From Lama guanicoe (taxonomy: Eukaryota), in the NCBI GenBank assembly GCA_013239625.1, contig MU053652.1:3399902-3463901 (forward strand): 64,000 nt of DNA, written 5' to 3'. The notes under the pieces were generated by a model. That model was not told the origin of the DNA. It ran no database searches and was given only the letters and a program-made list of their open reading frames with translations. Of the stretch, positions 1 through 63,784 are shown piece by piece. Each line of letters starts with the position of its first letter. The stretch's first letter is position 1. A program made the position numbers and the translations under genes.

Positions 1-771
1 TCCTTCCCATAATCAGTTACAATCTAAGCAGAGCCAACAAGCTTGTCAGTTTTGCCACTGCAGGATGTGTTGCCAGATCTAAGCCTGTGTGTCCTCCCCA
101 GATGCCCACCTCCTAGAACAATGTCCACCCTCTGCAGCCTCCCTACCACCCTCATAGGTGCAGCTCTCTGCAAAGCCCCCAGAGCACTTCAAAACCTAGG
201 GGAACATGGCTGCCTGGTAACACCAACTTCAGTGAGTCCTGGGCTGCCTGGTTTATTCATTCCTTCCAGGGGATGGGAACAGGGGAGGGGAGAGCCATAC
301 ATCATAACAGTTATTAGGAACCTGAGCCCCCATGCTAGGGGTAGGATCCTCCACTTGCACCACCCCTCCTCCCCCAGCACTGGCTTAAAGAAGATTTTCC
401 AGAGGGACATGGAGATAGCATGAGGTCCCGGAGGGCCTGAGGGACCTGGAAGGGACTGAAGGCAAAGCTTATCTGGGCTTTGATGCTGAAAGACTCTGTT
501 CCCTTCCTGCAGGGCTGACTATGGGTCAGTGTCTCAGGGCCACCTCTGTAGTTCATGAGCTTGCCTGCTGCCATGAACGCACTTTAGCATTTGGCCACAG
601 TGGCCCAACCACAGGGCTCTGATCTTTTATTTCTCTGATCAGAAAAGACCCCCAGCCTACTGTGTCTATGCAGAGTACTCTCCCACCTCATCCCGTGAGC
701 CCAGCCACATGGGACACTGCAGGGGCACCCCGGGCCCACCAGAATTCTCAGTTAATACCAGGAGACATAAC

Positions 772-876
772 CTTTCTCGCAGTCCAGATTGCTGTGGCCT
801 GTGAGATCCACTCCCGGGAATGGATGCCCGCGTTCAGCCAAATGGCCGGCCGCTGACTGCCTCTCCCAGTACTGAA
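772..876 (-). CDS. CPA4: CPA4 exon 6 (HxxE zinc ligands)
   Basis: [39 protein letters not shown]; 105 nt. Confidence 0.93.
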
Positions 877-14300: not shown

Positions 14301-14472
14301 ATGTTGGGAGCATTTTGCTCAGAATGGGATTTAAGAAAAAGAAAAAGATAAAGGGGTACATCTCAGTGATCTACTGTGTTTTAGGGCAACATAAATCAAA
14401 GAAATAATGCTCCTAGATTAGGATTAGAAAAAGGAATGAGGCCAACCCAACTTTGCTTCAAACCAAAGAGCT

Positions 14473-14488
14473 TTTAATGTTATTTATT
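14473..14488 (-). terminator. CPA2 polyadenylation signals
   Basis: AATAAA (14483-14488) and ATTAAA (14473-14478) on the minus strand just after the TAG. Confidence 0.5.
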
Positions 14489-14498
14489 TTCCAGATCC

Positions 14499-14686
14499 CT
14501 AGTAAGGATGGTCTTGAATATGCTCCATGATTGTCTTCAAGCCAAGCCAGGTCCCTTTTGCTGTGGGCAAGGTCTGATTGGCCAGCAGGAGGAAGCCATA
14601 TAGACCTGTATTTCTCAGTGCAAAGACAAACGAGTATTTGATGCCAGAGTCATTGAACCAGTCGATGCTTCCTCCACTGCCTTGGT
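14499..14686 (-). pseudogene. CPA2: CPA2 exon 11 (E270A)
   Basis: [33 protein letters not shown]...[10 protein letters not shown]; canonical FELRD is FALRN here. Confidence 0.9.
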
Positions 14687-17600
14687 CTGAAGGGCAAATG
14701 AAGATAAAATCCGGTTATGCTATTCCTACTGGCCTCTCATAGCTATGTAACCTCTATTAAGTTCCACCATTATCTAAAATAAGTCAGGCCCCTATCTGCA
14801 TGGACCTGAGCACAGGAATAGCTTGGTAGAGGGCCGTGCTTATGAAAAACTACAAGATTAATTTGAAAAGCAAAAGGTGTTATTCAAATAGAGACTATAC
14901 TTAGCCTTCCCTTGGTGTTCTTAGGAGCCTCTGGCTTCACCCACCCATTTGGAATCCTGTCTGCTCTCCTAATTGGCATCTTCTACACCTTAGGGAGGCC
15001 ACACCACTTCCTTCTTTAGTTGAGTGCTAGGCATAGACACCGTTTTCTCTAGTGGGAGAGGATGGATTACAAATAGAAGAGAGTTTGTCCCTACTCTCAG
15101 GGGACTTTTAACATAAGCGTGGAGCAGGCTTTGTTCTTATATTGAATAACATGCCCAGCACCTATACATAATGGATTAAACAGAGTAATGTGCACCTGTG
15201 TAATGAATGTGTGGCCACTGACATGACAGATGATAAAAGAAGGTAGTATTAGCCTAAAGGACTTGTGGCAATCATGACTCAGAAGAGCTGAGCAATGGAC
15301 CATCTCTGAGGCCGCTCCCAGGGAGGGCAGGTAGAGGCCAAATGGACGAGGTGGATGGGGCAGAGATGGAGGAAGTCACCTAGTCCCAAATAATGGAGCT
15401 GAGCAAAGGGGAAGACAGGCAGGTTGTACCAGGGAAAAGTAGGACTAATGGTTAATACTGGGAATTAACAATAAGAATTCTTGTGTCTGTGTCTTTGCTT
15501 TCACCCACAGGAGCACTGGTAGCACCTGGTAAACCAAATGGTTGATGACTTGAACTGAATCTTCCTGGGTACCAAAATTACTAACCTATACCTCTGGTGC
15601 GGCTACACGACACAGAGGATCCCACTAAGAGGTCGACAGTGAACCAAATACTGGCTTCAGATTGAATCCTGACTCTGCAAATCATTAGTGTCCTAAGGCA
15701 GTCACTTACCTGAGTCCCAGATGCTTCTTCCATCAAACAGGGATAATAATATTACTTATTTCACAGGGCAGTGAGAATTAGATGGGATAATATAATGCTT
15801 ATGATTCTGCCCCTTGTTGAGTGCTTCTGCTAAATATGTTAGACATTATGCTAAAATTGGATCATTTAATCCCCACCTGGGTCACGAGATAGATTCCAGT
15901 ATTATTCTTATTTTACAGATGAGGAAACTGAGAGACTAAGTGAAGGAGCTAGACATTACTCTAATGTCTGTAGAGTAAGCATTCAGTAAATGTCGGTTAT
16001 GATTATAATCATCATTATGAATAAATGACTGAAAAAGTTGGGCCACATTAAGGATCAGAGGTATCTGGAGGAGAGTAGCTCACCAGGAATCTAATGAGAA
16101 ACATTTATATAGTGCCTTAGAGTTAGAAAAACTCTTTTACTCTATATTCTATCTTTAGAGCCTCTCAACAATCCATTTCACAAGTGAAGAAACCAAGGGA
16201 AGATGAGTAACCTACCCAAGGTTACTTGGTTCCAAAGTGACAGAGCTGTAACTCAAACCCAGACTTCTCACCCAAGGTCTGTGTTTTTCCCCCCACACCT
16301 CTCTGAGAAAGAACTCACATAACAATTTTTCTTGGACCAAACACCTGCTGTGGTGCAGCTCCTCATAGCCCTTACTAAATAAGAAACTTCCCAGAAATGT
16401 CTCATCCACCACAGAAGTTCAGTCACCTCTTGAGGAGTGAAGCAAATATTTAGCCCAGAGCTGCATACCAATCCAGGGCAGGAAGCAAAACGTCCTTGTT
16501 CTTTGCAGTGCTTGTCTAAGCTGGAATGAGGCCAGGATTAAGGATAACTGATCAGCTGTGGACAGAAATGCAGCCACGACCTGCCTGGCCATTAAAGGGC
16601 AGGTTACAAAAGATCAGACAGCAAACCCTATACTTAACCTGACATTTGCTTAATAGAACTATCTTGAACATCTATGACTTTACCAAGAAAAACATACTAA
16701 ATGTCAGCCTTTTGAGGTCTACTTTACTTGTGAATACCTCAGACAAGAGAAGTGGAGAACTAGATTTCTTGTAATAAAATGGCTGAGTGTGGGTCTCAAG
16801 GGCAAGTGATATCATTCTGCTGACATTCTGAACTCTAGCCTCCATTCATAGGTGGCCAACCAGAGAAAACATGTATTTCCCAGCCTCAAGTGACTATCAT
16901 GGCCTTCCTCCCCACTGCCATCACTCAGAGGGCCCTTCTCCTGGAGGTCCTCCCACCAAAAGGGAAGACAATCTCACTTGGAACACAGTTTAAAAGGTAT
17001 GGACAATTGTAAGCAGATCTTCCCAGAAAATAGCCTAAAAATTTTGTAGCAAGAGCTCCAAAGCTGTTCACTACCTTTGACTTGAGAATCATCTAAAAGA
17101 AAAAGGAGACTATATCAATGTGTTCATAGTAGCACTATTTAGCAAAAAGTCAAAATAATCCAAAGGCCCTGTAACTGGGATATAGCCATATCATGGAATA
17201 ACAAATACCTAGAGTGGAAATACATAAAACTATACAGGAAATGATGTTAAACGAAAAAGGCTGGACACAAAATAGAACACAGACATTGACAACAACTAGA
17301 TAAATACATTGCTGTAAATATATTGCTGTTTAATGAAGTTGAAACTGACAATAAAGTGTGATTATTACTAGATTGTTTTTTCTATGAAGTTTTCAAATCC
17401 ATCGTAATAGCAAGAGAGAGAGAGAGAGTGAAAACCATAACCTCAAAGAAAAAGAAACTTTCATGGTCTGAAATATTACCAAATCAGTAGTTTTGGGGTT
17501 TCCATTAGGTGTTTTAGATGTGGTGAGTAAACGATTACTCCTCTGCTCTCCAAGACTCCTATTAAGAAAATCATGACTAACAAGTGTGCATTCTGTTAGA

Positions 17601-17879
17601 TTCCCACCACCACCCTTCTAAAGATAGTGCTATGTTGGTGCCCCCAGCATGTCTGCAGACTCTCTTCTCTTGATCAAGCCTGATCTGGCCACCTCTGTTT
17701 GTTCCGTTCTTGCCCCTCCTCCCCCCTTTCTAGAACGGCACTGCCTCAGTCATTTCTCTCTCCTGTATCTTCCACCTCTCTACCTCTATTGGTCCTTTTC
17801 CCACAGCCAATAAACAAATCTCTCAGCTCAAAAACAAAACTCTCCATTCCTCCTTCTCCTTCCTTTCTCATCCAAGCTC

Positions 17880-19130
17880 CTCACCCGGCCTCCCTTCTCC
17901 CTCATCCCTTGTACTCTTCCAGTTACCCTCACCACTCTTCTGAAACTGCTCTGGTTAAGGTCACCATAAGCTAGGGATGAAAATCCGATGGTAAATGTTT
18001 TGTCCTTGTCATATCTGACCTTTTGTGGCCTTTTGGTCATTGTTAACCACTGCCTCCTTTCCAACAATTGCTGCTTTCCAGGTTTCTAAAATCCAAGGTT
18101 CTCGGCCTCTCTGCCTAGCCGTGTTGTGTGTCTTTCCTCACTGCTAACCCCTTCTGCTGTCTAACAGCTCCCCTTCTCCACCCAGGGCTCTTCCCGCTCT
18201 AAACGATCTCCTTACTCACCTGTTTCAACCATCCTCTGTATGTCAACTACTCTTAAATCTCAATCTCAATCTCTCTCTCTCTCTCTCTCTCTCTTTGCAG
18301 AATCCCAGGGCCATGTAGACCAAAGCCTGCAGGACATCTCCACTTGAAAACACCACAGTTATCTCAACTTCAATATGTCCAGAGCTGAAGTCATTTTCTT
18401 TTCAAGCCCACCCCTCTGTCACCTTCCTGGATGCCTCCCTCAGTTAATGGCACCATTCAGGGACCATCGATGAGAAACTCCTCCCTCCTAATAAATGACA
18501 AAAAGCCTCCTAAATATCTCCCTTCCATCCTCACTGGCACTGCTGTAGTATGGGCCATCACCTCTCCTCTGAACTCTCCCTACACTTCCTGTGGAATGTT
18601 CCTACTTCTAGTCCATCCTCATCCCATCCTCCACACTGCTGCTAATGTGTTTTATCTAAAACATGATGCCTCAGTGCACTCACTGACCTGCTGAGAACTC
18701 TCCAACAGCTTCCAGAATCCTTTCAGTTAAAACCTAAATTCTTTAATACGGCACACAAAAATGTGAACTCCCTCCACTCCCCTTCTTAACACTTTTCATT
18801 CCTCCTTGTAGTTCACAGAGCCCCTCATGCAGTTTCACATGTCTGTGCTTTTGCATGTGCTGTTAACGAGTCAGAATCCTCCATTCCTCTTCCCTTTCTC
18901 TAGCCTTCAAAATCCTGCCTTCAAAATTCTGCCCTCTTCCTGGATGAAATCAAATCCCCCCAACTTTCTATAACTTTTGTACCATGAGCCTATTATTGCA
19001 CATATCATACTAAAGTTTGTTTGTCTTCCCATTCATCTTCCATATTAAACAGTGGGCTCTCGATGGGTTCATTATGTCTTGGCATAATGATTAGCACATA
19101 GTATATGCTCAATAAAAGTGTGCTGAACAC
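17880..19130 (+). mobile_element. LINE-2 fragments
   Basis: gaaactgctctggttaaggtcacca..., ctcaacttcaatatgtcca..., and a 3' end gcacatagtatatgctcaataaa. Confidence 0.65.
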
Positions 19131-19914
19131 AGTGGGTGCCTATAAGAGGCATTTGTTTCCAAAGGATCCATGGGCATGGGAGCATCAGGGAACTGAGCAT
19201 TCAAGTGTGGGGTCCTGAGTTTCTGGCTTTGTCCATAAGGAAGTAGGGGGATTCCTTTGGGGGACTAAGAATATGCAGGAAGGTGCATTAGGATTTCTCA
19301 TAGCATTGCAACTGTTTCTTGTTTTTATACTGATTCACTCTGGGAGACAAGAGCCTCAGAAAGTCTGACTGCAGGCTCCCCAGCTTTATTCCTGCCACTG
19401 CCATTATTCCTAACTTGTCCTCCTCTTTGTCTCCCCAAACTCTTCCTGGGCAGGTGGCTGCAACACAGTCTATCCACTGAAATCTCTGGATCCTCTTAAA
19501 GAGTCACACCCATTCTGTCCCTACACACAGTCCATGGGTCCACTTAGGGTGTGAGCCCCTCTTAGCCAAGAAACTGGGTAATTAATAAAAGTGGTGACTT
19601 AGGAACAAGACTTAATAAAGGCCCATTTTCAGGCAAAGAGATTCTACATAATGAGAGTGAGCTGTAAGGATCAAAATAAGCAGAGTAGAGAGCAGATAAC
19701 TCAAATATGTAAGGAAGTTCTTTGTTGTAGGTATCACATTGGAAGTATCTCATGGAAGAGATCTAGCCTTACTGAGGAAAATTGGGTAAAGCTGGGTTCC
19801 ATGCATTGCTACGGCCTATCCATTTTACATCTTGGCATTTAAAGGCTTTGACCCAAAATCACATGGTGCCTGCTATCTTACTGGGTCATTTGTGACAACA
19901 CACTAGATACTTAC

Positions 19915-19999
19915 AGATGACTAAACAGACAGGTCCCATTTTGTACATGGTGCCGTGCAGGCTTGTCAGAGATTGGGCATTCTCTTGGGCCACTTCATT
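19915..19999 (-). pseudogene. CPA2: CPA2 exon 10
   Basis: NEVAQENAQSLTSLHGTMYKMGPVCLVI; 85 nt; AG/GT. Confidence 0.88.
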
Positions 20000-20519
20000 C
20001 TTTACTGAGAGAAACAATGAAAGGTGGGTAGATAATGCTTGTCTCTCGGAAGAACAGAAGCCCAAAGGCAGAATGTAGAATGGGACAGTCTAATGAACTG
20101 GACTCTCTGGTTAATTAAGTAAAAGCCCTTTTAGTTTCAATCATTTTCACTGAAAAGTAAGCACAAATTCACTTCTTCTGGCTCTGAAAATACAACATGA
20201 AGACCCTCATTGTTTATTTGATCATTCATGTGTTTGCAATAAATACACAAGGGTCATTACTTTGCCATCAGCTCTCCCTGTAGAAGGAAACTGGGTGAGA
20301 GTAAGGGGCTAAAGAGGATGTGTACTGACCCAAGGATGTACCCAGGAAGTTGTTGGGGTTTTGGGGGATTTGTTTTTGTTTTTGATTTTGTTTTTGTTTT
20401 TTTACTGGATCCCTACATTGACTTACTTCCCTATGACTGTCTCTTTTTCCAAGCAGTAGAGCTCAGGAAAATATTTTCCATTATTTGAAGGTTCCAATTT
20501 TGACTGACTGAGGCTTTAC

Positions 20520-21160
20520 TGTCCTTGCTAGGGATAAATGTAAGGTCTTGAACTTGGGTCCAGGAAAACAACTGTACAATTACCAGATGGGGGAAAACTG
20601 GCTCAGCAGAATCCTCAGAGAGCCTGGGGGTTTCGCTTGTCAATAAGCCCAGCATGAGTCAACAGCACAACACCAGTGCCAAAAACTAATGTGACCCTCA
20701 ACTGTACAAGCAGAAGTCCACAGTCGGGATGAGGACAGTTATGGTCACGCTCTGCTCTGTGCTTGTTAACCCACAACACAAGTTTTACATTCACTTCTGG
20801 GTGCTGCCCTTAAAGAACACAGAAAAACCAAAGCATGTTTGGAAAACAGCAACCAGAATGAGGGAAGTTGGGAGCATATTCTGAGTGCTTAAAGGGATGA
20901 AGGTATTTACCAGGAATAAGGAAAAATCTAGGAGAAGTAGGTTACTAATCTTCAAGTAATTAATAAATTTGCCTCTCAGAGGGAAATAAACTTGCTCTCT
21001 GTAGCAAGACAATAAACCAGGGCTGGTAAATAAGGAGAAGGTTTGGGCTCTCTATAAAAAAGAACTCAAACAATCAAATCTGCCCCAAAATGGAATGGGC
21101 TCCCTTGGAGGTAGAGAGCTATCCAATCATAGGCTGGATGACTATCTGGCAGAGATTTAA
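20520..21160 (+). mobile_element. CR1/L3 LINE 3' fragment
   Basis: atgagtcaacagc...gccaaaaactaatg...ctctgctctgtgcttgtt...ttctgggtgc resembles the CR1 ORF2 end. Confidence 0.6.
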
Positions 21161-22086
21161 GCACCAGGTTTGGATAATTTAAGGATATCCAAATCTACTA
21201 AAACTACTTTTGACATTCAGCCCTGATATTCTTTTTCCCCTAATTCAACTCTGAGTGATAATATTCACCATCAAAACACTGAAAACTGCCTTATGGGAGC
21301 TAAAATCCAACTAATGAGATGAAAGATACACCTGAATTGGAATAATCTATTCCATTTCTGCTAGCTGCTGACAACAATCTGCTTGAGAGTAAACTGACCA
21401 AAAGGTTCTACCTCAGGGCTTATCTCTAACATATGGGTTTCAAAACCAAGCCTCAAAGCCAAATTGGAAATATTTGCACATTCTCCTCAGCTGGGGATTG
21501 CTCTTGCTCAATTGTAAGCAGTCTCCTGAGATGTCACCATCTGATTTAAGGCTGCCACCAGTTGACTCATTCCTGAAACAGAAGAGATGATGGAGGGTAT
21601 CAAGTGATACCTTAGGGAAGTGAGTGTTTCATGCCCAACATATTCCAGTGCAGCATGATGATAGATCACAGAGCCAAAGACACCAGGAAGGTATGAGTCA
21701 AAGAGCTGGAAGGAAGCATTGCTTAGCATAGAGCAACTGACTACAGATCCAACAACCTCAAGTCCAAATCCAAGTGGTCATTTCCTAAGCAATGGAAAAC
21801 ACATCTTGAGAATTTATGGTCAAATGAGGTTCCTGCTTATCTAGATTAAGGCAACAATAATCTCATGAATTCTATTTCCCAAGGAAATTTAATTTAGTAA
21901 CGTCCATGACCAGTCTTTCAAACCTTTGTCTGTGTCACAGTCTTCTCAGTGGCTGAATATATTATGTCTCACTTATCTTTGTAACCAGTCACTAGTACAC
22001 CCCATCTCAACACCTACCTTTATAAAACTTACTTGTCCACACCATGGACATTGTGGCTGAGCTGAAATGAAGTTTCAGAAACTTTC

Positions 22087-22286
22087 CAACTCATCAAAGT
22101 TATGTGACTCGGCACATGCATACACCCAGGGGAACAGGAAGAGCTGGGAATAGCTGTGGAGAGTAATGATGGCCTTGACTTCTCCATGACTCTTGGTGAA
22201 GTCCTCTAAGGATTTCACTTCAACTTCAGAGTTGGCACTGGGTCTATGGTATGAATTAGAGCAAGAGTTGTTGTTAGCCCCAGGTC
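22087..22286 (-). pseudogene. CPA2: CPA2 exon 9 (donor lost)
   Basis: PGANNNSCSNSYHRPSANSEVEVKSL...ITLHSYSQLFLFPW...FDEL|GAAAGT; 200 nt. Confidence 0.9.
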
Positions 22287-23822
22287 CTGACCAGATGCAG
22301 AAGCGGCCCAGTGAGAACAGTGAGCTTTAAGGAGACACTGTATGGAGGCAGTTACCATGTGTCACTCAATTCCTCCTCTGGAAATCAAATCAAGATCATC
22401 ATTGTATTAGGTTGAGTTGCTACCTAAAGACATAGTCAGGAGACCTAACGGGAAGAGTGTGGACACATCTCTCTTCTTTGAAAACATGGTTCCACTATAT
22501 GGCAGAAAGAGCTGTCAAATTAGATCATCTCCCCTCTGTGGGAGTTGTTGGAAGAAAAGCTAGATTTAATATTATAGATGGAATTCCTGCCTTGGGTGGG
22601 AGTTGAGCAAGCTCATTTTCTGGGATTTCTTCCAATTCTTAGAGCCCAAGAGTAGAAGATTCTATGTATCTGTACTTCTAAGTCACAAAGCCACAAATGC
22701 AAGGAAGCTCTGATATTCTTTCTGCAATGAGGAAGTCACAACAGGGCTATCTTTGGCCTTTATTTTCTCAGCAACTAGAGTTACTCATGAACACTAAAGT
22801 GGGCCCACTGTGCCTGGTCAGGGCTCCGAATGCTAGAGAAACTCCAAGGGGATGAGTAGAGGTTGGGATTCCCCAGGGTCTCTAAATGATATGAACAAAG
22901 TATATATACAATCTGTTGTATTATTTAATAAGAACACTATTCCAGGAAAAAATCTGAATTTGAATTGCTAAAAATTGTTCTATATTTTGAATCTGATGCT
23001 TTGATTTTTTTTCTTACACTAAAAAAAAAAACCTATTATAAAAACAATGAATGAAGTTGCCATTCATCCATATCCTGTCACAGTTCCCTAATGTCTCCTT
23101 TCTTGGCTCAGTGACTCATTAATTCATTTGTCTTACAAATATTTAGTGACTGCCTTCTATGTGCCAGACACTGTGCTAGGCGTTAGGACTACTATAGCGA
23201 AAAAGACAGTTTCTAGCCTCACTGTTATCATACCTAATGAGGAAAAACCAAATAAATTTCAATTCTGTGATTACAGAAACATGAGATTTTAACTGATGCC
23301 TGAAAGTATAAAGGAGCACTCCCCTCATCAGCCTTGTACTAGACCCTGAAAAATCAGAGCTGCAAGTCAACAAAGGCAGAGAAGCAAGTATTTTCTCTTT
23401 GAATTTATTTGAAAATCAATTTCTTAATCTTATTTGTACTTCATTCTAGTTTTCTTTCTCGAAGCATCCATAGATGATGTAATGCTTCTCCTCCAACTAG
23501 ATCCCAACCCCCTCTAGTGGTTGGTTCAGGACTTCCTGAGGCCGCCCGCCGCAGCGCAAAGTCTTGCTCTGGAAGCTCAGAAGCTGAGCCAAGATACAGC
23601 TTGTGGGAAAACCAAAATGTGAGACAAAAACTATTAAATGCCCCTCAGAGCTCAGTGACAGCACCGTGTGCCTGTGAAGGGAATTTAGAGTCTTTCAAAT
23701 AGGTTCTTAAATGGCTTCAATCATGAATGGACTTAGCAGGCTGACAGCACTGCAGAGCCATGCAAATAGTTTGTTGGCCAGACAACATCTGACTGTCTTT
23801 GGGGGCAAGTCCCTGTGCCCAC

Positions 23823-23913
23823 CTCCAAAACCTGTGTCCCAGTTCCAGTTAGGATCAACACCAACACAGAGGCTTCCAGATAACTTGGATCGGGTCTTCC
23901 GGTACATATGAGT
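23823..23913 (-). pseudogene. CPA2: CPA2 exon 8 (R145W)
   Basis: [30 protein letters not shown]; canonical NRN is NWN here; 91 nt. Confidence 0.9.
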
Positions 23914-23943
23914 CTTTAAAATACAACAGAAAGAGAATACATT

Positions 23944-23987
23944 AAAAAAAAAAAAAAAAAAAAAAAAATAAAAAAAAAAAAAAAAAA
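23944..23987 (+). repeat. Poly(A) run of about 44 nt
   Basis: A-run with a single T; reads as poly(T) upstream of the CPA2 exon 8 acceptor. Confidence 0.9.
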
Positions 23988-25091
23988 GACGGCCATTCAG
24001 TCTGATGAGCAGGTTCCTTTAGAATTCTGTTCATTTCCCTCTCTGTCTCCCACGAAGGCCCCTTCAGAATTGCGCTGATTTCCCTTGCCCACAGAGGGAC
24101 CAGCAGTCCTCAGACAGCATTCTGCTTGGAGTTTCTCAGCTGTCTCACCAGGGTGAGAAGTAAATAAACCCCCATCTCCTCAAATGAATACCTGCCAAAC
24201 CATTTTCCATAGAACCCCATTCCTGTTAAATGTTAACAATAACAAACAAAAACAAAAACAAAACAAAATAAATGCGGGGAGAGAGCGAGGGTTCTGTGAC
24301 AGAATTTTGGGGGGGAAGTAACAGGGTTAAATTGGGTAATTTACTTCAGAACTTCTAAGGGGTTTTGGGTTTTTTTTTTTAATACTTAATGTTTTTTATG
24401 AAGCTTCAAGAGAGGAATACAGTGGGTGTTATTTCCCAAACTTGACTATGAAATCCTTTATTCATAGGGTATCTCATGAGATGAGTACTAGCATTTGTAC
24501 AAGTTCCTTTTGATCACACGTTGAAAAATGTCATCGTAGTAGGCTCTCTCCAAAAATAAATTTGAAGTTCTGATACATTTTGAATATATGTGGGGTCACA
24601 GTTGCCATAATGGTGTTTTGTAATGAGATTTTAAAAGAAAAAAATACTTCATAACTCCTTTTTGTGATATTACAGAGGATTGCTTCTACAGATTGTAAGT
24701 AGAATGCCAGATGCGTTGCACTGCCTACCTAAATCCTACAGCAATCTAATTGTCAGCAGGTAACGTCCGCCTCCGCTTTTCTATCAATCCTACCACAAAA
24801 ACGCAAAGATAATTGGAACAAATCTCCTAGGTGACTCACGGTGAACACTGAACACGAATAGCCCAGCATAACAGCTAAAATGGGCTCTGACCGAGGGAAT
24901 ACAGAAACATATCGTGTGTTGGAAAAAGAAGTGATTATAAATTCCACTATATGCCTCAATTCAGGGCCACTACTGAGAGATTAAGCATTCCGTTTAGGAT
25001 AAATCAAGAACAGAAAGATTGCTTTTATTCTGTTTTGAAGTTCCGACACATCTCCTCAGATGCCTCTTGAAGAGAAAAAGTCCAGGCTTAC

Positions 25092-25202
25092 TTTGGTTTG
25101 AGAGAGCACATAGCCATCCGGGTTGGTGACTGGCAACAGGAAGACATCCATTATATCCAAAATCAAAGTAATGGATGGATCATTTCCATAATCAGAGGCA
25201 AT
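25092..25202 (-). pseudogene. CPA2: CPA2 exon 7
   Basis: IASDYGNDPSITLILDIMDVFLLPVTNPDGYVLSQTK; 111 nt. Confidence 0.9.
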
Positions 25203-26545
25203 CTGAGCAGAGACAACAACATATATGTCAACCTCATACTCCCTTTTTGCCAGGAAACACTGGAGCGAATATTAAGTCAATGTGTTTTTTCAAAACATGA
25301 ACTAGGTATCACTCACTGCTGGAAAATGGGAGTCCTCCAGCCCAATCTCCTGTTAATGTGTTTAATATGCCAATGTTGATACTTTTACTTCCAGTCGTAA
25401 TAATTTACTTATATTAAACAAAAATCAGATATCACTTACCCATTCCCTCTCAAGGGCAGGTTTCTTCCTATTAATTCTGGTGAGGGATTTTGCAATGGTG
25501 TGCAATGGTGTACGTGGCTTAGAGGGATCTATGAACCAGGGAAATTTTTTCAGTTCCTTAATCACCACACAGGCTATGTAGCTTTCTAAAAGTACTCACA
25601 ACCAACATCAGATTACTTAAATATGCAGAGACTTTTCTAAAGATCCAGAGAACCGGTTAAATTCCATTTGGGGAACTGCATTTCTACTTGCGATCAATTG
25701 CAGTAGAGTTGAAGTTTCCGCTGGATTAAAATTTATTCATTTCCTGTGCTCAGCCATCCTAAGGCATTATTATTCAACTGTTAAATATCCATTTCATAAT
25801 ACCCTAAAGGTAACCGCATTTTAATTGAAGGGCAAAATGTATCAGCCAGTATGCACGTGGTTGCACAAGCTTGAATGATCTGATGTGGATTGATTTCCTT
25901 TGCTCATGAATTAACATTCTGATTTATAGTGTGTCACTTCTGAATTACTAAAGAAATACCAGACTAGGTCACACCTAGTGCAGTGTCCTGACTCTAATTC
26001 CAACGAACATGTGGAAGAGAGGTATCGCTACACCCTAACTTCAAAATCGGATTTGGAAAATTTTCAGAACCACCCGAAAATCCTTAACAAGTTCCACTTT
26101 GGATCTATGGGTCAAAGTAAACTCTCCTAGCACCTGCTTATGTTTGCTATGAGTCCCTTCTGCGATTTTACAGATTTCTAGTACATCGTGCCTCAGCCCT
26201 CGGAGCTCCAGGCAGCAAAGTGATTTTTCTCTAGTCTGTTCTTATGCTGAAATCTGACTCCTGGGGTCCTTACCTGCCACCCTCTCAAACTCTTCCAGCT
26301 CTTGGAATCTTTTAACAGAGCACACAGTGGCCAGCAGGCCAGGGGAGGGGAGCCTGTGTCAGGGTTCTGGGGGCGGGTTGGGGGATACTAAAAAAGGTTT
26401 GAATGGGTCCATTTCCTGCCTGTGTAACAAAAGAAGGGCTTGGGCTGAGAGCGTTAGCCATTAGGACCACAGGGACTGCTGTGTGGGTAGACAGGGCCTG
26501 ACCCCAGAAAGACAAAACAATCAGGGAATTTGGGGCAAAAACGAC

Positions 26546-26644
26546 CTTACTTGCTGTCCACAGCGAACTAAGTTGTGTAACCCACTCCCGGGCATGGATC
26601 CCGGCCCCTCGCCAGATGGCCAGCTTGTCTCCTCCAGTGCTGAA
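26546..26644 (-). pseudogene. CPA2: CPA2 exon 6
   Basis: [33 protein letters not shown]; 99 nt; HARE motif retained. Confidence 0.9.
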
Positions 26645-26994
26645 CTGCAAAACAAGCATGGAAATGTGAACGGCTACACCACCGCAGACCCCTCGTCCCC
26701 TCTCTTTTCCCTGAGGCCTTGTCGGTCCCTTTTTTGGTACTTGATGTGGTTGAGAAGGAGGGGGTGTAGACAGTAATGCTGTCGATTAACTCTTCTCATT
26801 TAACATGATTTTTCTGGTCCTCTTAATGCAAACTTAAATGCAGGCTAACAAGAGGGGCATGCTTTGATGTTTGTTAAAAAAAAATCACTGCGGATAACGT
26901 GATGACATGAAAATATGTTCATCATATGTTGCAGATTTTTAAAAATACTACAGAATAGTATGATGCCGTTTTTATTTTTGAAAAGGCTAGCTCA

Positions 26995-27010
26995 TGTGTA
27001 TATATATATA

Positions 27011-27046
<36 letters not shown>
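26995..27046. repeat. (TA)n(TG)n(TA)n microsatellite
   Basis: Directly visible. Confidence 0.9.
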
Positions 27047-28257
27047 AGTACACACAAACAGGAGAAAAAGAGAGGGGGAGGAAAAGATACAAGCTAGAAA
27101 GATAAACAACAAAATGTTAATAGCTATCATCTCATACTTGCGGAATTATAAAATGGGAATGTTTTTCATTTTTTGTTTGTTTCTCTGTTTTCCATTTTTT
27201 GCAATGATTGTATTTTTTTAATAAAAAGGCTTGTGATAACCTTTTGAGTCTTTCATAAAAACAGGATGGTAGGCTCTGGAGGTGCTTTCCAGAGTTTAAA
27301 TTTTATGATCTAAGTGACTCAGTTTTATTTGGAACAGTGGCTTTGCCAATTGGATCAGTAAATGGGGAGGAAAAGATTATTTTTGCACCATCAACTTCTA
27401 TCTTTGTGCAGCATTCTAAACATCGCAGATAAGGTAAATGAGAAATGAAAATCCTTGCTAAAAATTACATTTCATGCGTTTTGAGAGTTTTAGTTTAATG
27501 TCTTTCCCACTTTTTCCTTCAAAGAGCTCAAATGTAGAAAAGTGGGGAACTTTGGAAAACAACATTCTCAACCACAAACCACCTGGGAGAAGGAAAGGCC
27601 AGGAAATCCAAGGGTAAGGAGAATCTGGGGTTTCCTGACCCAGCTGTAGGAGAAAACGGGAAAAGGAAATAGAAAGAAAATAAGGTAGTAAATATGAGCA
27701 AACGTGCCACGGTGTCATGAAGTAGGCGAACCACTCCTCCCAGACCTGCTTTGGGAAAACCGCTCCGGAAAAATCCATCTGTCCCAGCAAGTCCGTTGGT
27801 TCTCAGCCATAACGTTTCCAAATTTAGCAGGGAGTTGTGACATTATTTTTTTTTCCTTAACAAACTCTTTCTAGGAAATCTGGGGAAATAACTTTCACTC
27901 TTTTTCAATGCAAGGTGAAAAAGCCTGAAACTATCAGCATTAAAACTGTTGTCAGAAGTTTGAAGTTGGAGTAAAACCCTAACCTTTTCCGGTTAGCACC
28001 TTTAAAATACCTGCGTTTATGGACATTAGCCTCTGACGGTTAGCTGCCCCTGGCATTTACTTGCCTGTCACCCTGCTCACTGTGAGAACTCTGGGTTTTA
28101 AACGCGGCTCCGGCAAGTACTTGGAGCTTTTTCTTTTCTTTTTTCTTTTCCTTTTTCTTTTCACTCGGTTTTAAAACGAGAAAAAGAAAAACAAGGCACA
28201 GAACTCCTACCTTGATTAATTACAGAAAACCTGCCCCCCACCCCCGTGCTCACTCTG

Positions 28258-28459
28258 NNNNNNNNNNNNNNNNNNNNNNNNNNNNNNNNNNNNNNNNNNN
28301 NNNNNNNNNNNNNNNNNNNNNNNNNNNNNNNNNNNNNNNNNNNNNNNNNNNNNNNNNNNNNNNNNNNNNNNNNNNNNNNNNNNNNNNNNNNNNNNNNNNN
28401 NNNNNNNNNNNNNNNNNNNNNNNNNNNNNNNNNNNNNNNNNNNNNNNNNNNNNNNNNNN
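28258..28459. other. Assembly gap (202 N)
   Basis: N run with GC-rich flanks in CPA2 intron 5. Confidence 0.99.
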
Positions 28460-28777
28460 CGACCCTGGGGCCCGCACCGCCTCCCCCTTCCTCTGTTCCT
28501 ATTGGCGCATACGCCTGTTTTCCTGCGAGCAAATCTATCAAGATGAGAGCATTAATTCACTCCTGCAGACCTGCGTCAGCTTGCGCAGTTAAGAGAAAAA
28601 GAAAAGAAAGAAGGGTGGGGGTAGTGGGGAGGTGGATACTCAAAACCAGCAAGGACCGGTTAGGAAAGGGAAGGAAAAAGGAACTGCTCTGCAGCCAGAG
28701 CTGGGACAGACGGCCCGCCTGGGAGGAGCAGGTTTCTAGAAGCATCGAGAGGAAAAACCAGCACTGCACCTGTGTAC

Positions 28778-28879
28778 CTTGAGTACGTTCATGAGCTGGT
28801 TTTCAAAAGGATAGCCAATGTTCACCTTGCTCCCTAGACCAGGGTGCTCAGCAACGAGGTTATTCATTTCTTGAGAAAT
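28778..28879 (-). pseudogene. CPA2: CPA2 exon 5 (acceptor lost)
   Basis: ISQEMNNLVAEHPGLGSKVNIGYPFENQLMNVLK; preceded by CAT instead of CAG. Confidence 0.9.
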
Positions 28880-30501
28880 ATGGAATGTTTAAAATGAAAT
28901 AGACATTTGCAGATGAATAATCTGATGCATCCATTAGTGACTTTTCTCTCTCCTCCATTTCCATTCCCTTGGGGACTGGAGAGGGCAGCCCGGCAGATGC
29001 TGTGGGACTGGGGACGCTGGAGTCAAAGCTAACAGATGATGAGTCCCTGGGCAACTACAGGGGCTGGAAAAGAGGAAGCCATTTTGCAGCAGGGGAGCTG
29101 GCTCTTTACAGTTTTGTGATTCAAATAAAATGGAACTGATCTGGCTTGCCTCTGGCTTGCCTCAGCCCAGCTATGAGAAGGAACTTCCCCAGCCAGAAAG
29201 CTGCTTGCCTTCACTAGCAGAGGAACACAAATGGTAGTGGTACAGAAAACCAAACAAACAAGTGTATTTAGAGGCAGGCACTACAAAACACAGAAGGGCA
29301 GTTACGGCCAGGACAACCTGGGTGTCTGCCTCAGAGGCACTTCGGCTACCTGCTACTCTGGCTCCTATTTGCAGGGCTGATTGAAATGCTGTGCAGCTGG
29401 GGCACCCAAGCTGTGTCCATTGCTGGTATCGAGACATGTCTGGGCGTGTCTGGAGAGTGAACGGCTCCTCCAGCTGTTGCCAGCATTTGCTCTCGGCAAG
29501 AGACAGACACCAATTTGTAAGGCCAGGCAAAGGAGAGAGAGCATTTTGTTTCCATCACTCTCTTTTCTCCCTCACTCTCTGTACGGGTCCACTATCCTTT
29601 ATCTGAAATCCTTAGGGGCCATACCTACTTCAAATTAAGAAAGGTAGGAAGGTACACTGTATATTACATACGGGCAGTGCTCCATATTCAACTATGTTAG
29701 TATTTCTGACAGTGAAACACATGAGCAGCAAGTTAGTTCAGGTCAGATTTTGCCCCTAAATGAGTTTAGGTCAGCTCAGAGTTTGCCACAAAACAAATTC
29801 AAATTTTTTTTTTCAGAGTTATTTGTGTTTTAGAATTGCTGGTTTGGGGGAATTAGGATTCACCAGATATCTGCTCTCTGGCTCTTTCCTACTCCCCCAC
29901 CTCTCCCCTTAACCTCCCAACCCCCATCTCCTCAATCCTTCCCCTCCCCTGCCCCTCTCCAAATCAATGCAAATACACCCCCGTGGCCCCCAAGAAAAGC
30001 TGTGTGTCGCAGAGGCAAGTGCAGCACTGTCCAGGTGACCCAGGTGGAGGAAGGGGGCATTCTTCACACTAACAAAACAGGAAAGACAGAAGAGACAGTG
30101 CACAAGACTTTGCTGCCATGAGGTCTGAGAGCATTTGGCAGGTTGAGGGGTATCAAGGTGTCCCCTGATTCCATCATCAGTGGCAGCCATGAAACACAGC
30201 TCTCAAATGCCTTTGTGGGTGGCACAGGTCAGAAATCAGCATGAGCATAAGGCTGTTTTGTGCTCACTTAAGCCACTTCTGGACACTTCCAAATGAGGTG
30301 CCTGCTGGGATGGACAGGTGGGCTTCGGGGCCTGCCTTAAGGCAGTGACACTGATACTGACTGTGAAATCCTAGAGAAACTGTAAGAAGTTAGGAAATAA
30401 TGTGAGAATAATTTCCATTAAATCACCAAGTTTAAGTATAGGCCTTGTTATCAGAAGAAGAGAATGCCCTGTTTCTTTGATGTTCATTTTGAAATACCTA
30501 C

Positions 30502-30597
30502 CTCTTCCAAGATACGATAAGCCTCAAAGTTGAAACTACCATTCCATTCTCTTCTCTGATTAAGTAACATTTCTTCATTCTTCTTGTCCAACAGAAC
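30502..30597 (-). pseudogene. CPA2: CPA2 exon 4
   Basis: VLLDKKNEEMLLNQRREWNGSFNFEAYRILEE; 96 nt. Confidence 0.9.
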
Positions 30598-31202
30598 CTA
30601 AGATAAATCAATCATACCTATGATTAGTTTACAGTGATGCATTTGAACTGATAATAGTGAAGGAAATGATGATTCTCAAGTTCCCAGTCCCAAGCATTCC
30701 TCTCCCTCTTCTATAGGCTTTGGGGTGATGCCTTTCCCTTATTCTGGCAGCACCCTGAAAGGGGATGGGGCATAAACAGATTTCTGGCCAGGCAGATGCT
30801 GCAAATGTAGGACGATATTCATGTGGCTGTCTTACGGCTCATTCTTCCTTTCTGGGAACCCCAGGTCTGAGGTAACCTCCAATTAAAAAGTAAATGAATA
30901 ACATCTTACTTTTACCTACTTTGACTAACACTCTTCAGTTTGTACTTGGTATTTCATGCCAGAGACTCTCTTTCGCCGTTTCCATTACATTTTTTATTAC
31001 CATATCTCACTTGTGCCAACTGCAAAAAAGAGAGGGACAGAGGCTTCCTACTCACTCTGCGGGGGTAGCCCAGCCTGCAGGAAGGCCCTGGTAGCACCCA
31101 CAGGTCCCTTCTCTGGCAAGGGTACCCAAGGATAAAAGAGGATGGACCTTCAGTTCATATGGACCAGCAAGCCTCTGGAAGGGTACGCTGAGGGATAATC
31201 AC

Positions 31203-31339
31203 CTGAACACTTCCCATCATGATGAAATAAACAATTCCCTGGGACTCTTTAAGAAAACTTTGACTGCCTGGATGCTGACAAAGGGAACTCGGACATGGGT
31301 TGTCTCTCCTGGGATGGTGGGTGATTTCCAGAAATTAAG
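31203..31339 (-). pseudogene. CPA2: CPA2 exon 3 (+2 frameshift)
   Basis: [30 protein letters not shown] +[15 protein letters not shown]; 137 nt versus 135 nt for CPA4 exon 3. Confidence 0.9.
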
Positions 31340-31997
31340 CTGTAAGGGATAAAAGGCCAAGGCAATGAGTGGGTCATTCAAGGAAAATGGACAGCTCAGC
31401 ATGGGTATATTTCAAGAAATCAATTTGTATCTATTTTACCTCAAGCCTATAAGGCTAGAATCATTGTGGAATTACTATGATATTGCTGGAAGGGTTTTTA
31501 AATATCCAAGCATCAGCATATGTGTAATATTATTTTCCCCTTATATGGTTAGATATTAAAACTGGCAGAAGGTAAAGATTATTTAAAACTGTAGCAGTTT
31601 TTTTAACAGTTGACATTCAAGTGATCCAATTCATTTCATAACATAATATTAATTCTGTAAATTATTTTAAAGGGAAATAATGCATTAAAAGTGTTCAACA
31701 ATTTTTCTGAATGACTTTCACATTCAATTTCTCTTTTCATTTTTACAAAACACCTGTGAGACAGAGACTGGTATATTTATCCTCATCAAATGAGACACAG
31801 GGAAGATAGGTGACTTGCCCAATGTCACATAGCTGCGACTAAAGCCCAGGTTTTCTGTATCCCAGCTCCATGAGTTAGCATTCCACACTTCTCATCAGAG
31901 AAGACAAGATACAATCCAAAGTAAGAGACCACAATCATGTCTATTTATGGAGTATTCACTCTGGGGGGAAAAAAAAGGTCCCCTCTAGGACAGATAC

Positions 31998-32079
31998 CTG
32001 AAGATGTTCTTTAGCCTCCAATTCCACAAGATTTTTTATTTGTTCTTCATTCCTTGGTATGATCTCAAGGATCTGACCT
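31998..32079 (-). pseudogene. CPA2: CPA2 exon 2
   Basis: [27 protein letters not shown]; 82 nt; AG/GT intact. Confidence 0.9.
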
Positions 32080-32100
32080 CTAAAGAATAGTAACCCCAGA

Positions 32101-32234
32101 GAAGGTATAGCTCAGTGGAAGAGCACATGCTTAGCATAACATGAAGTCCTGGGTTCAATCCCCAGTACCTCCATTAAATAAATAAATAAATAAACATAAT
32201 TCCCCCCGCCGAAAAAAAAGTGGTTTAAAAAAAG
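32101..32234 (+). mobile_element. tRNA-derived SINE (camelid Vic-1-like)
   Basis: A box tagctcagtgg, B box ggttcaatccc, (TAAA)n, A tail; diverged 17-bp TSD at 32084-32100 and 32235-32251. Confidence 0.85.
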
Positions 32235-34105
32235 AGAATGTTAACCACAGACATGACCTTAAAAAAAAAGCCTGGGCACTGTTTCTGTTGCTTTCTGCTC
32301 CTGTCAGTCTCCACATGTAAAAGGTTAATACAGCAGTCAATAATCTCTTTAACAATCAAGAAACTAATAAATAGTATACTGACCCACATCCCCAGGAGGA
32401 GTTGATATAATGGCTTTACTTCCCCCAGGGAACTATTATCTAAATAATAATTAACAGCTGTACCTGCTCCTAGCAGGAAGTTTGCCAGTAAAGTTACCCT
32501 TCCTTTAGCTAATGATTATTTATCAAGTAACACTTGCTGCTCATAAAGCATTGGCTTTTAAAACTTATCTGTTCCTGTTTTTCAGAATAAGGTTTTTAAA
32601 AAGTAGAATAATTAATTTGGTGCTTAAAAGTCCTCAAAAGAGGAATTAAATTTACATCTGGGTAGACCTAGGGTGTTTTTGTTGTTGTTAGCTAAAGTGT
32701 ATCAGAGTTCCATCTCCAAACCCCATTCATGTGGCCCAAACTTGGGGTATGGCTAGGGAAAATTGGGACCCAGATAAATCATGGTGTCTCTCTCTCTATA
32801 TATACACACACACACACATACACATCCCCACAATGAGGAATAAAGGATATCAAGGACACCTTGGCAGGAAAGAGAAGTTGCAAATCAAGCAAACACATAT
32901 CCTTAGAAAAAAGTCGAGTAGTAGAGCTGGATTCTTATAGCCCTTCCTTGGTGACAGAGGTTTTTCCTCTCTCCCTTTCACTGAGTAGGCTGACTTCCTG
33001 AATCACTGCCCTGCTCATTTGTGCAGTGGGGAAGGGATTGATACAGAGAGCTGTAATGAAGGACCAGAACCAGGTCTCCTGAAATCAAGTACCATCCAAT
33101 TTCCATTTAACTCCACTAGAATATATAAGTGATAGAATGTATGCTCTTGAAGTCTCTGCTGCCTTCCGGTACCACCAGCCATAGATGGTCTGAAAATTCT
33201 TCCATTTGAGTCTCATTCCTTTTGGGTAATCCATAGATTCCCTTTAAAATGGGAAGGCATTGGGAAAAGTAATACATTGATTGGGTTAATATTTCCTGGT
33301 GTGTTTTCTAAGACCTTTTGAGTTGCTCAGCATAAAAAAAAAAAACGGTGGGAAGGAGTTTGATGATCAAAATAAACGGATAGATGCAGCAACCTAGATC
33401 CCCCCTCTTATAGATTTACAATGTACACTAATTTAGTAAAAGTTCCTAGAAATTCCATAATTTGTTTAACCCTCTGATTCCCAAATTTATTTGACTGCCT
33501 ATTTTGTAGGCCAAATTTATTTGGCTACGTTGCTAGTTCCCTGCAACACTCTTCAAGAAATGCTGCTCTTCACAGAATCTTGAAACCAAAGTACTTTGGA
33601 ACAGAGATGGATCCTGCAGATCCATGATAGTTGGATTTGGGCTGAAGTCTGCAGCCTTGGGCCTCCCACCTCATGAGGTTCCAATGTCTAAGCACTTGAT
33701 CTGAAGATAGGAAGGACTTGGGCTGACATGGAGGAAGTGGGAGAGTAACCTGTCACTTACTGAGATGGCACTGAGACAAATGACCGAACAGCTTTATTTT
33801 CACTGATGTCTGTTATCCCTACCTTCTGAGCATCAGCAGGGAGGATGATTAAGAATAGAGAGAAATAGGGTGCATGTGTTCAGTTTTCACTTCTTGTTTT
33901 TCTCCTTTAAATATCATTCCTCTCTCTCTCTCTCTCTCTCTCTCTTTTGATCACAAATTCCTATTATCCCAGTATCCCCTCTCCAAATCTAAAAGAACTC
34001 TGAAAATGCTGAACACTTAACACTCATTATTCTGCAACAATCCAGTGAGAGACTCTGTGAATCGTGTAAGCAAAATTCAAACAGGCACCAGAAAGCATAA
34101 CTTAT

Positions 34106-34171
34106 CCTACAAATGTTTCTTGACAGTAGATATGACCAAAAGGGGCACCAAAAAAACAGGATCAGTCTTAT
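34106..34171 (-). pseudogene. CPA2: CPA2 exon 1 (disrupted)
   Basis: ATA AGA CTG ATC CTG T7 GGT GCC...TAC TGT CAA GAA ACA TTT GTA GG|ATAAGT: no ATG, one extra T, dead donor. Confidence 0.88.
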
Positions 34172-34217
34172 AGTTAAGGGTCTTCCAAGAGTCCAGAATT
34201 CAATGTCACTCCTGCAC

Positions 34218-34337
34218 TTTATTTATAGGGACCACGGCTGCAGCTGATGTGCTGGCAGTCTAAGAACTCAAGTGAATTCCCACATAGTAAAATTCCCACC
34301 TACATGTCAAATTCTCAAGGTTGTAGACACCCACCTG
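34218..34337 (-). promoter_or_regulatory. Relic CPA2 promoter: TATA, E-boxes, RBPJ-like TC boxes
   Basis: TATAAATAAA at 34218-34227 (minus); CAGCTG at 34241; CACCTG at 34332; TTCCCAC at 34277 and 34293. Confidence 0.55.
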
Positions 34338-58718: not shown

Positions 58719-59116
58719 GATGGCTTCTTGCTTTGAAAATAAAACATGCTCAAAGGGATGAAGATGACCGGGAAGGACTTCACTCCGTGTTTATGACAAC
58801 TTCCTTGGCAACGTATTATGACCTATACTTCAGTAACTGTGACAGGAACTGACAAACATTTCTTGGATTTCTAAGTTTTTGGAAGATTTATCTAAATTAC
58901 TTCTATGAGAGTTTAAGGTATTTTCCCCATACCTCAATATGGTGCATTCTGCTTCAATTTTTTGGGGGGGGGGTCCTGAAACTTGTATATGCTTATATCT
59001 TCTTTAAATACCCTATTTTAATGTCTTTAAAATATGTCTTTGAGGTATCCATTCTTTTTTTCAGTCTCTTTGATATCTACTATATCACTGCAGATTCACA
59101 TACATAGTTCTAATGT

Positions 59117-61834: not shown

Positions 61835-63784
<1,950 letters not shown>

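What the first reader, a model, noticed from the sequence alone, without database searches (positions are those of the whole stretch)
14499..34171. CPA2 is a unitary pseudogene: loss of a pancreatic protease in a probable camelid
Seen: all 11 exons sit at the syntenic position but carry six structural lesions. These are ATG>ATA (34169-34171), +1 T (34150-34156), exon 1 donor AT (34104-34105), +2 in exon 3 (about 31249, giving a TGA at 31217), exon 5 acceptor AT (28880-28881) and exon 9 donor GA (22085-22086). The neighbouring genes are clean, so sequencing error is unlikely. Known: CPA2 is the pancreatic carboxypeptidase that prefers bulky aromatic C-termini; as I recall, cattle are classically described as having no separate A2 form. 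Inference: this may be a diet-related, possibly convergent loss in foregut fermenters.
Basis: partly seen in the sequence, partly recalled or inferred. Interest (0 to 1): 0.8.

Follow-up and report, generated by a model that had tools for sequence, protein, structure and literature searches.

The report
Dead CPA2 gene in camelids
The gene for the pancreatic digestive enzyme carboxypeptidase A2 is broken in many places in this New World camelid, and most of the damage likely predates the split between llamas and camels; this is an ordinary lineage-specific gene loss of a kind already reported for whales.

Summary
They are ATG>ATA, a +1 T, an exon 1 donor AT, a +2 in exon 3 that gives a TGA, an exon 5 acceptor AT and an exon 9 donor GA.

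I also found R145W and E270A at the substrate-anchoring and catalytic residues. At 198 columns invariant in 30 intact placental CPA2 proteins, the window differs at 38. Intact species differ at 0-5.

The locus sits between SSMEM1-like and CPA4 genes, keeps all 11 exons, and is the only CPA2 copy found in the assembly. The neighbouring CPA4 has its ATG, 20 of 20 canonical splice dinucleotides and an open frame, so a poor-assembly explanation is unlikely.

The conceptual protein differs at 3 of 396 residues from NCBI's alpaca "LOW QUALITY PROTEIN: carboxypeptidase A2". Models from three Camelus species share the lost start codon, R145W, E270A and 35 of the 38 deviations, so the decay is old.

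The diet and foregut-fermenter reading is not supported by what I could test. Pig and humpback CPA2 models are equally decayed, and CPA2 loss is already published for whales, a howler monkey and a vampire bat.

Only one lesion could be checked in read-derived contigs. Ruminant DNA could not be examined.

Verdict: a real, fixed unitary pseudogene of moderate to low novelty.

The parts
14499..34171 (-). CPA2 unitary pseudogene: 11 exons from the former start codon to the TAG stop
   Evidence: tblastn with intact CPA2 proteins. Exon ends and splice dinucleotides.
34169..34171 (-). Former start codon, now ATA (Ile)
   Evidence: All 5 full-length Camelus models read I here (LTIRLILFF) and borrow an upstream Met.
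34150..34156 (-). T7 run with one extra T: +1 frameshift in the signal-peptide codons
   Evidence: the match to CPA2 changes frame across this run. Not covered by the contigs laid.
34104..34105 (-). Exon 1 splice donor AT instead of GT
   Evidence: Homologous CPA4 boundary is GG|GTAAGT.
31248..31250 (-). AAA run holding two extra A: +2 frameshift in exon 3 (pro-segment)
   Evidence: Also present in the X3 contig spanning 29334-32133.
31217..31219 (-). TGA reached in the frame that enters exon 3 from its normal start
28880..28881 (-). Exon 5 splice acceptor AT instead of AG
   Evidence: The alpaca model skips the first residues of exon 5 (EEV--EMNN), while the 5 Camelus models read EEISQEMNN, so this lesion is likely private to New World camelids (inferred).
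23845..23847 (-). TGG codon: Arg145 to Trp (bovine CPA numbering)
   Evidence: Offset to bovine CPA chains is query 2-30 = residues 124-152. Shared by all camelid models.
22085..22086 (-). Exon 9 splice donor GA instead of GT
   Evidence: All 6 full-length camelid models insert EIK here, which fits a cryptic donor 4 bases downstream joined to an acceptor 5 bases upstream of exon 10. That this splice is used is inferred.
14619..14621 (-). GCA codon: catalytic Glu270 to Ala
   Evidence: Offset to bovine CPA chains is query 1-56 = residues 249-304. Shared by all camelid models.
14483..14488 (-). AATAAA poly(A) signal just after the stop codon
   Evidence: Sequence only; use not tested.
34220..34227 (-). 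TATAAATA, a TATA-like box about 50 bases before the former start codon
   Evidence: Sequence only; activity not tested.

Best explanation
This locus is a dead copy of the pancreatic carboxypeptidase A2 gene, lying in its ancestral place, that cannot encode an active enzyme, and its inactivation likely predates the split of New World and Old World camelids.

Shown directly:
- The start codon is lost.
- A +1 and a +2 frameshift put about 75 codons of the signal peptide and pro-segment out of frame, with 4 stop codons.
- Three of 20 splice dinucleotides are non-canonical.
- Arg145, which holds the substrate's C-terminal carboxylate, is Trp. Glu270, the catalytic base, is Ala.

Inferred:
- No secreted proenzyme is made.
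- A-type pancreatic carboxypeptidase activity would then rest on CPA1. Exons 3 to 11 of CPA1 are open here and carry the active-site motifs GIHSREW, WRKTRS, DANRNW, IHSYSQ and FELRD (the residue numbers are my reading of these motifs).
- The loss became fixed under relaxed selection in or before the camelid stem lineage.
For: - Lesions read in the sequence.
- Residue numbering checked against bovine CPA chains.
- Relaxed constraint: the window differs at 38 of 198 columns invariant in 30 intact placental CPA2s. Leave-one-out controls differ at 0-5, median 1. 67 residues are seen in none of the 30, against a control median of 7 and maximum of 15.
- Only copy: own-genome searches with exon 9 and exon 11 give self at 100% and otherwise known paralogues at up to 51% and 66%.
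- Synteny: DUF4636 (SSMEM1-like) and TMEM209-like ORFs on one side; CPA4, then CPA5 and CPA1 on the other.
- Not an assembly fault: CPA4, 3 kb away, is flawless. The +2 is seen in a read-derived contig. 15 runs of 4 coded organisms hold 0.93-0.98 of the sampled words of 14400-24300.
- Age: NCBI lists LOW QUALITY PROTEIN carboxypeptidase A2 for alpaca, dromedary, Bactrian and wild camel. All Camelus models have Ile at the start position, R145W and E270A. All 6 full-length models have the EIK insertion at the exon 9/10 joint. 35 of the window's 38 deviations are shared with the dromedary, with the same residue.
- CPA1 exons 3 to 11 are open with the catalytic motifs.
Against: - NCBI still annotates the locus as protein-coding (with corrections) in four camelids, so it may be transcribed. 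Expression was not tested.
- Exon 1 and the exon 5 acceptor were not covered by any laid contig, so 5 of the 6 lesions rest on this assembly plus indirect support from other species' protein models.
- The two frameshifts add to +3, 338 codons after the second are open, and there is no nonsense codon in the corrected frame. About 3.7-4 would be expected if all unique changes were neutral, P about 0.02. Part of the fast protein change may therefore have happened while the frame was still kept.
- The exon 9 donor lesion may be bypassed by an in-frame cryptic splice pair.
- Whether the two frameshifts are shared with Camelus cannot be told from protein models.
- CPA1 exons 1-2 were not found with the CPA2 query.
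Confidence: 0.9

Rival explanations
1. CPA2 lost its constraint at or near the base of Cetartiodactyla (camelids, pigs, whales, ruminants). On this view the camelid pseudogene is one remnant of a clade-wide loss, not a camelid-specific or diet-driven event.
For: - Pig models (4 UniProt entries in one cluster) and the humpback LOW QUALITY model deviate at 38 and 36 of the same 198 invariant columns, as much as the camelids.
- Among the best 120 hits of two searches, the only cetartiodactyl CPA2 proteins are these decayed ones, and no ruminant appears.
- Bowhead and minke whale CPA2 are published pseudogenes (passage read).
- 35 of the window's 38 deviations are shared with the dromedary against 3-4 private ones, which points to a very old start of decay.
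Against: - Positions hit in two lineages number 8 (camelid and whale), 10 (camelid and pig) and 7 (whale and pig), against about 7 expected by chance. The same residue occurs at only 2, 1 and 2 of them. There is thus no sign of shared decay.
- No shared disabling lesion could be examined, because no DNA of the other lineages was on hand.
- Absence of ruminant proteins from a capped, clustered list is weak evidence.
Confidence: 0.3
2. One reading: an adaptive or diet-linked loss that arose convergently in foregut fermenters (camelids and ruminants).
For: - Camelids are foregut fermenters (established knowledge).
- A 2026 paper reports CPA2 among seven lost pancreatic-secretion genes in the folivorous howler monkey (passage read).
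- No ruminant CPA2 protein was seen.
Against: - Equal decay in pig and in a baleen whale.
- Loss also in one blood-feeding bat (passage read).
- Nothing links the loss to benefit rather than to redundancy with CPA1.
- Ruminants were not examined at the DNA level.
Confidence: 0.12
3. The locus still makes a product, as the protein-coding annotation implies. This would be a protein started from an upstream Met and spliced through cryptic sites, acting as a catalytically dead pseudo-enzyme.
For: - NCBI models in four species.
- A long open frame after exon 3 and no nonsense codon.
- The zinc ligands His69, Glu72 and His196 are kept in the window.
Against: - The signal peptide is out of frame, with 4 stops before the frame is restored.
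- The models need corrections (LOW QUALITY).
- 19% of invariant positions are replaced.
- Decay continues separately in each lineage: R71W in Camelus only, the exon 5 acceptor in the alpaca-like lineage only.
Confidence: 0.04
4. The lesions are sequencing or assembly errors in an otherwise intact gene.
For: One lesion lies in a homopolymer (T7). There is a 202-N gap in intron 5. Five of the six lesions were not covered by laid contigs.
Against: - Six lesions of three kinds plus two active-site changes.
- The flawless neighbour CPA4.
- The +2 is present in an independent contig.
- The start-codon loss, R145W and E270A appear in independent assemblies of three Camelus species.
Confidence: 0.02

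Closest known systems
CPA2 pseudogenes of bowhead and minke whales (Keane et al. 2015, Cell Rep, PMC4536333; one passage read)
   Same: The same gene, a unitary loss in a cetartiodactyl lineage. A humpback model in the protein collection is flagged LOW QUALITY and is as decayed as the camelid one.
   Different: A different lineage. Only 2 identical replacements are shared at invariant columns. The lesions themselves could not be compared.
CPA2 loss in the howler monkey (Genome Biol 2026, PMC13651202) and in the vampire bat Diphylla (bioRxiv 10.64898/2026.07.24.740446); one passage of each read
   Same: Loss of the same pancreatic protease, discussed in the context of diet.
   Different: Independent lineages with unlike diets (leaves, blood). 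This weakens any single dietary explanation.
CPA3 inactivation in Old World camels (iScience 2025, PMC12127551; passages read)
   Same: A carboxypeptidase A paralogue inactivated in camelids, found with TOGA.
   Different: That loss is specific to Old World camels. The paper's main text does not mention CPA2 (0 occurrences, listing). Its supplements were not read.
Functional human and rat CPA2 (PDB 1AYE, 1DTD)
   Same: Best sequence match for exons 8, 9 and 11, with the same 417-codon length after frame correction.
   Different: Start codon, frame, three splice sites, Arg145 and Glu270 are lost here.

Membership tests
CPA2 orthologue (M14A metallocarboxypeptidase gene cluster) | Closer to CPA2 than to CPA1, CPA4 or CPA5 | tested here: met
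   Exon 9: human CPA2 E 1.7e-26 against CPA4 4.5e-18 and CPA1 1.1e-17. Exon 11: CPA2 2.2e-25 against CPA4 8.5e-23. Named CPA2 proteins of many mammalian orders reach 70-75% identity to the dromedary model.
CPA2 orthologue (M14A metallocarboxypeptidase gene cluster) | Syntenic place: TMEM209 - SSMEM1 - CPA2 - CPA4 - CPA5 - CPA1 (order recalled from the human genome) | tested here: met
   PF09786 ORFs at 62844-63784 (+), both just below Pfam's curated cut-off, and PF15468 ORFs at 52628-58790 (-). CPA4 exons 1-6 and the start of exon 7 at 11448 down to the window's first base, the rest beyond it. Two further paralogues lie on the same contig; the one at 3334101-3339570 reads as CPA1 by its motifs and its fused exon 3+4, and the name CPA5 for the other comes from its place in the recalled human order.
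Active M14A carboxypeptidase | Zinc ligands His69, Glu72, His196 | tested here: met
   GIHAREW and TLHSYSQ are kept in the window. Camelus models have R71W beside them.
Active M14A carboxypeptidase | Arg145 (binds the substrate carboxylate) and Glu270 (catalytic base); roles recalled from the bovine CPA literature | tested here: not met
   Trp at 145 and Ala at 270, by offsets to bovine CPA chains.
Active M14A carboxypeptidase | Start codon, signal peptide and pro-segment in frame | tested here: not met
   ATA, +1 and +2 shifts, with 4 stops between them.
Unitary pseudogene | Intact orthologues in other species and no intact copy in the same genome | tested here: met
   30 intact placental CPA2 proteins were used. 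Own-genome searches with two exons found only itself and paralogues. Only two of the 11 exons were used as queries.
Unitary pseudogene | Signs of relaxed selection | tested here: met
   38 of 198 invariant columns changed against 0-5 in controls. dN/dS could not be computed because no orthologous DNA was available.
Unitary pseudogene | No functional transcript or protein | not tested

The most novel reading that the evidence does not exclude
CPA2 stopped being needed at or near the origin of Cetartiodactyla. Camelids, pigs and whales each carry an equally decayed remnant, and ruminants have none that is annotated as a protein. That would be a clade-wide loss of one of the three classical pancreatic carboxypeptidases. 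It would explain why only an A1-type enzyme was ever purified from cattle and pig pancreas (recalled), and it is unrelated to foregut fermentation.
Probability: 0.3. Interest if true: 0.5.

Novelty: new member of a known kind. Interest (0 to 1): 0.3.

Why it matters
It corrects the public annotation: four camelid genomes list this locus as a "LOW QUALITY PROTEIN" rather than as a pseudogene. It adds camelids to the mammals known to have lost CPA2. With equally decayed pig and whale copies, it also raises a testable question: did even-toed ungulates as a whole give up this enzyme early, independent of diet? For digestive physiology it predicts that camelid pancreatic juice has no A2-type activity, which prefers bulky aromatic C-termini, and relies on CPA1.

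Tried and rejected
I repeated it with exon 11.
- on 28800-34260, only run X3 gave long pieces. The other three runs covered little beyond a repeat at 32094-32825 and scattered bins. Exon 1 and the exon 5 acceptor had no cover in any run, which proves nothing either way.
- The RNA-Seq runs X16 and X17 hold 0.34 and 0.31 of the sampled words of a mostly intronic 10-kb stretch.
- a scan of metagenome contigs for stray host CPA2 (hoping for ruminant remnants) gave 185 pattern matches, none confirmed.
- the scan's earlier findings held nothing on this gene. The CPA2 hits were antiporters and fungal genes.
- Literature searches found no paper on CPA2 loss in camelids or ruminants, and none stating that cattle lack an A2 form. 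Subscription journals and supplements were not searched.
- A constant-rate dating of the loss was abandoned. The shared-to-private ratio of changes (35 against 3-4) would place it before the lineage existed.
Full report
**What is there.** The window is G000:C1339:3399902-3463901 of a 2.05-Gb assembly. tblastn with intact CPA2 proteins of Pan (P0008) and a horseshoe bat (P0009) finds all 11 exons of a CPA2-type gene on the minus strand between 34171 and 14499. I read every exon with its flanks and fixed the exon ends. The exon lengths are 66, 82, 137, 96, 102, 99, 111, 91, 200, 85 and 188 bases.

**The six lesions.**
- ATA for ATG at 34171-34169.
- A T7 run at 34156-34150, across which the match to CPA2 changes frame.
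- Exon 1 donor AT at 34105-34104.
- Two extra A at 31250-31248, which lead to TGA at 31219-31217.
- Exon 5 acceptor AT at 28881-28880.
- Exon 9 donor GA at 22086-22085.

The remaining 17 of 20 splice dinucleotides are canonical.

**Further damage.**
- By offsets to bovine carboxypeptidase A chains, the Trp codon at 23847-23845 stands at Arg145 and the Ala codon at 14621-14619 stands at Glu270. His196 was placed the same way. The roles of these residues (carboxylate anchor, catalytic base, zinc ligand) are recalled from the bovine CPA literature.
- I made a frame-corrected conceptual translation and aligned it with 30 intact placental CPA2 proteins. It differs at 38 of the 198 columns that are invariant in those 30. 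Each intact species, left out in turn, differs at 0-5 such columns, median 1.
- 67 residues occur in none of the 30 intact proteins. The control median is 7 and the maximum 15.

**Is it an artefact?**
- The paralogue CPA4 ends 3 kb from CPA2. It has its ATG, 20 of 20 canonical splice dinucleotides, no frameshift and all active-site motifs.
- The SSMEM1-like ORFs on the other side are open with strong Pfam matches.
- Fifteen sequencing runs of four coded organisms hold 0.93-0.98 of the sampled words of 14400-24300.
- Laying contigs gave little.
- In the second call, one contig of X3 spans 29334-32133 with no difference in exons 2-4, so it carries the +2. X3 may be the source sample. Exon 1 and the exon 5 acceptor were uncovered in all 4 runs.
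- There is a 202-N gap at 28258-28459 in intron 5, but no exon is missing.

**Identity, place and copy number.**
- Exons 8, 9 and 11 match human CPA2 best among solved structures, ahead of CPA4 and CPA1.
- The order TMEM209-like, SSMEM1-like, CPA2, CPA4 and then two more paralogues on the same contig fits the human order, which I recall.
- Own-genome searches with exon 9 and exon 11 return the locus itself at 100%. Otherwise they return only paralogues, at up to 51% and 66% identity.
- It is therefore a unitary pseudogene, not a duplicate or a retrocopy.

**Which animal, and how old is the loss?**
- The protein collection holds "LOW QUALITY PROTEIN: carboxypeptidase A2" for Vicugna pacos, Camelus dromedarius, C. 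bactrianus and C. ferus.
- The window's reading differs at 3 of 396 aligned residues from the alpaca model and at 16 of 416 from each of five Camelus models. The window is thus from a New World camelid or a very near relative.
- All five full-length Camelus models read Ile at the former start codon and borrow an upstream Met. All carry R145W and E270A.
- All six full-length camelid models insert Glu-Ile-Lys at the exon 9/10 joint. This is what a cryptic donor 4 bases past the broken one, joined to an acceptor 5 bases before exon 10, would give.
- 35 of the window's 38 deviations at invariant columns are shared with the dromedary, with the same residue.
- I infer that the start-codon loss, the exon 9 donor change and both active-site changes predate the split of the two camelid tribes.
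- The exon 5 acceptor lesion seems private to the alpaca-like lineage, and R71W private to Camelus. Decay therefore went on separately after the split.
- Protein models cannot show whether the two frameshifts are shared.

**How it works.** It does not. Without the start codon, with the signal peptide and pro-segment out of frame (4 stops) and without Arg145 and Glu270, no active secreted carboxypeptidase can be made. CPA1 on the same contig has open exons 3 to 11 carrying the active-site motifs GIHSREW, WRKTRS, DANRNW, IHSYSQ and FELRD, which I read as His69, Arg71, Glu72, Arg127, Asn144, Arg145, His196 and Glu270. Its first two exons were not found with the CPA2 query. Redundancy with CPA1 is my inferred reason that the loss was tolerated.

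**Two oddities.**
- The +1 and +2 shifts add to +3, so the frame is restored and 338 codons stay open. The corrected frame has no nonsense codon, although about 3.7-4 would be expected if all 67 unique changes were neutral, P about 0.02.
- The ratio of shared to private changes (35 against 3-4) is too high for a constant rate.
- Both would fit an early phase of fast protein change, or a later slowdown of the mutation rate. I cannot tell which.

**The dietary reading.**
- Published CPA2 losses include bowhead and minke whales, a howler monkey and one vampire bat. I read one passage of each paper.
- In my alignment, pig models and a humpback model deviate at 38 and 36 of the same 198 columns.
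- The positions they share with camelids (10 and 8) are about what chance gives (about 7), and identical residues are few (1 and 2). The decay looks independent, or it stems from a very short common branch.
- No ruminant CPA2 protein is among the best 120 of two searches, nor among the 15 of 85 members listed for the largest laurasiatherian cluster. This is weak evidence of absence.
- A link to foregut fermentation is therefore not supported. A clade-wide early loss in even-toed ungulates remains possible.

**Novelty.**
- Seven literature searches found nothing on CPA2 in camelids.
- A 2025 paper on camelid gene inactivation reports CPA3, not CPA2, in its main text. I did not read its supplements or the large gene-loss tables.
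- I rate this a new member of a known kind.

Noticed in passing
window 28258-28459: An assembly gap of 202 N inside CPA2 intron 5. No exon is lost to it.
   Followed up: yes
window 1-11448 (-) and G000:C1339:3391785-3399901: CPA4, the neighbouring paralogue, is fully intact: ATG at 11448, 11 exons, 20 of 20 canonical splice dinucleotides and all catalytic motifs.
   Followed up: yes
window 52628-53140 and 58515-58790 (-); 62844-63784 (+): Two open exons of a DUF4636 (SSMEM1-like) gene (E 5e-93 and 6e-37) and the first exons of a TMEM209-like gene (PF09786, just under Pfam's cut-off). They confirm the syntenic setting.
   Followed up: partly
window 34150-31248 (-): The +1 and +2 frameshifts add to +3, so the frame is restored after about 75 codons. 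The corrected frame of 417 codons holds no nonsense codon, where about 4 would be expected under pure drift (P about 0.02).
   Followed up: partly
window 32094-32276: A very high-copy repeat in intron 1. Summed contig depth is about 27,000-107,000 in four runs, and the loose ends read like a tRNA-derived SINE.
   Followed up: no
proteins P0082, P0130-P0132 (pig) and P0061 (humpback): Pig CPA2 models (382-398 aa, UniProt) and the humpback model are as decayed as the camelid one. They lack or replace residues at 38 and 36 of 198 invariant columns. The pig models also skip the end of exon 9 and lack Tyr248.
   Followed up: partly
runs X16, X17 on window 14400-24300: Two RNA-Seq runs labelled as a reproductive-system metagenome hold about a third of the sampled words of this mostly intronic stretch. 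This could be host DNA, unspliced RNA or another transcript.
   Followed up: no
proteins P0002, P0123, P0124, P0127, P0128: Old World camel models carry a further active-site change, R71W (IHAWEW), that the window lacks. The Bactrian and wild camel models also lack a residue near the C-terminus (TI-KHIQ).
   Followed up: no
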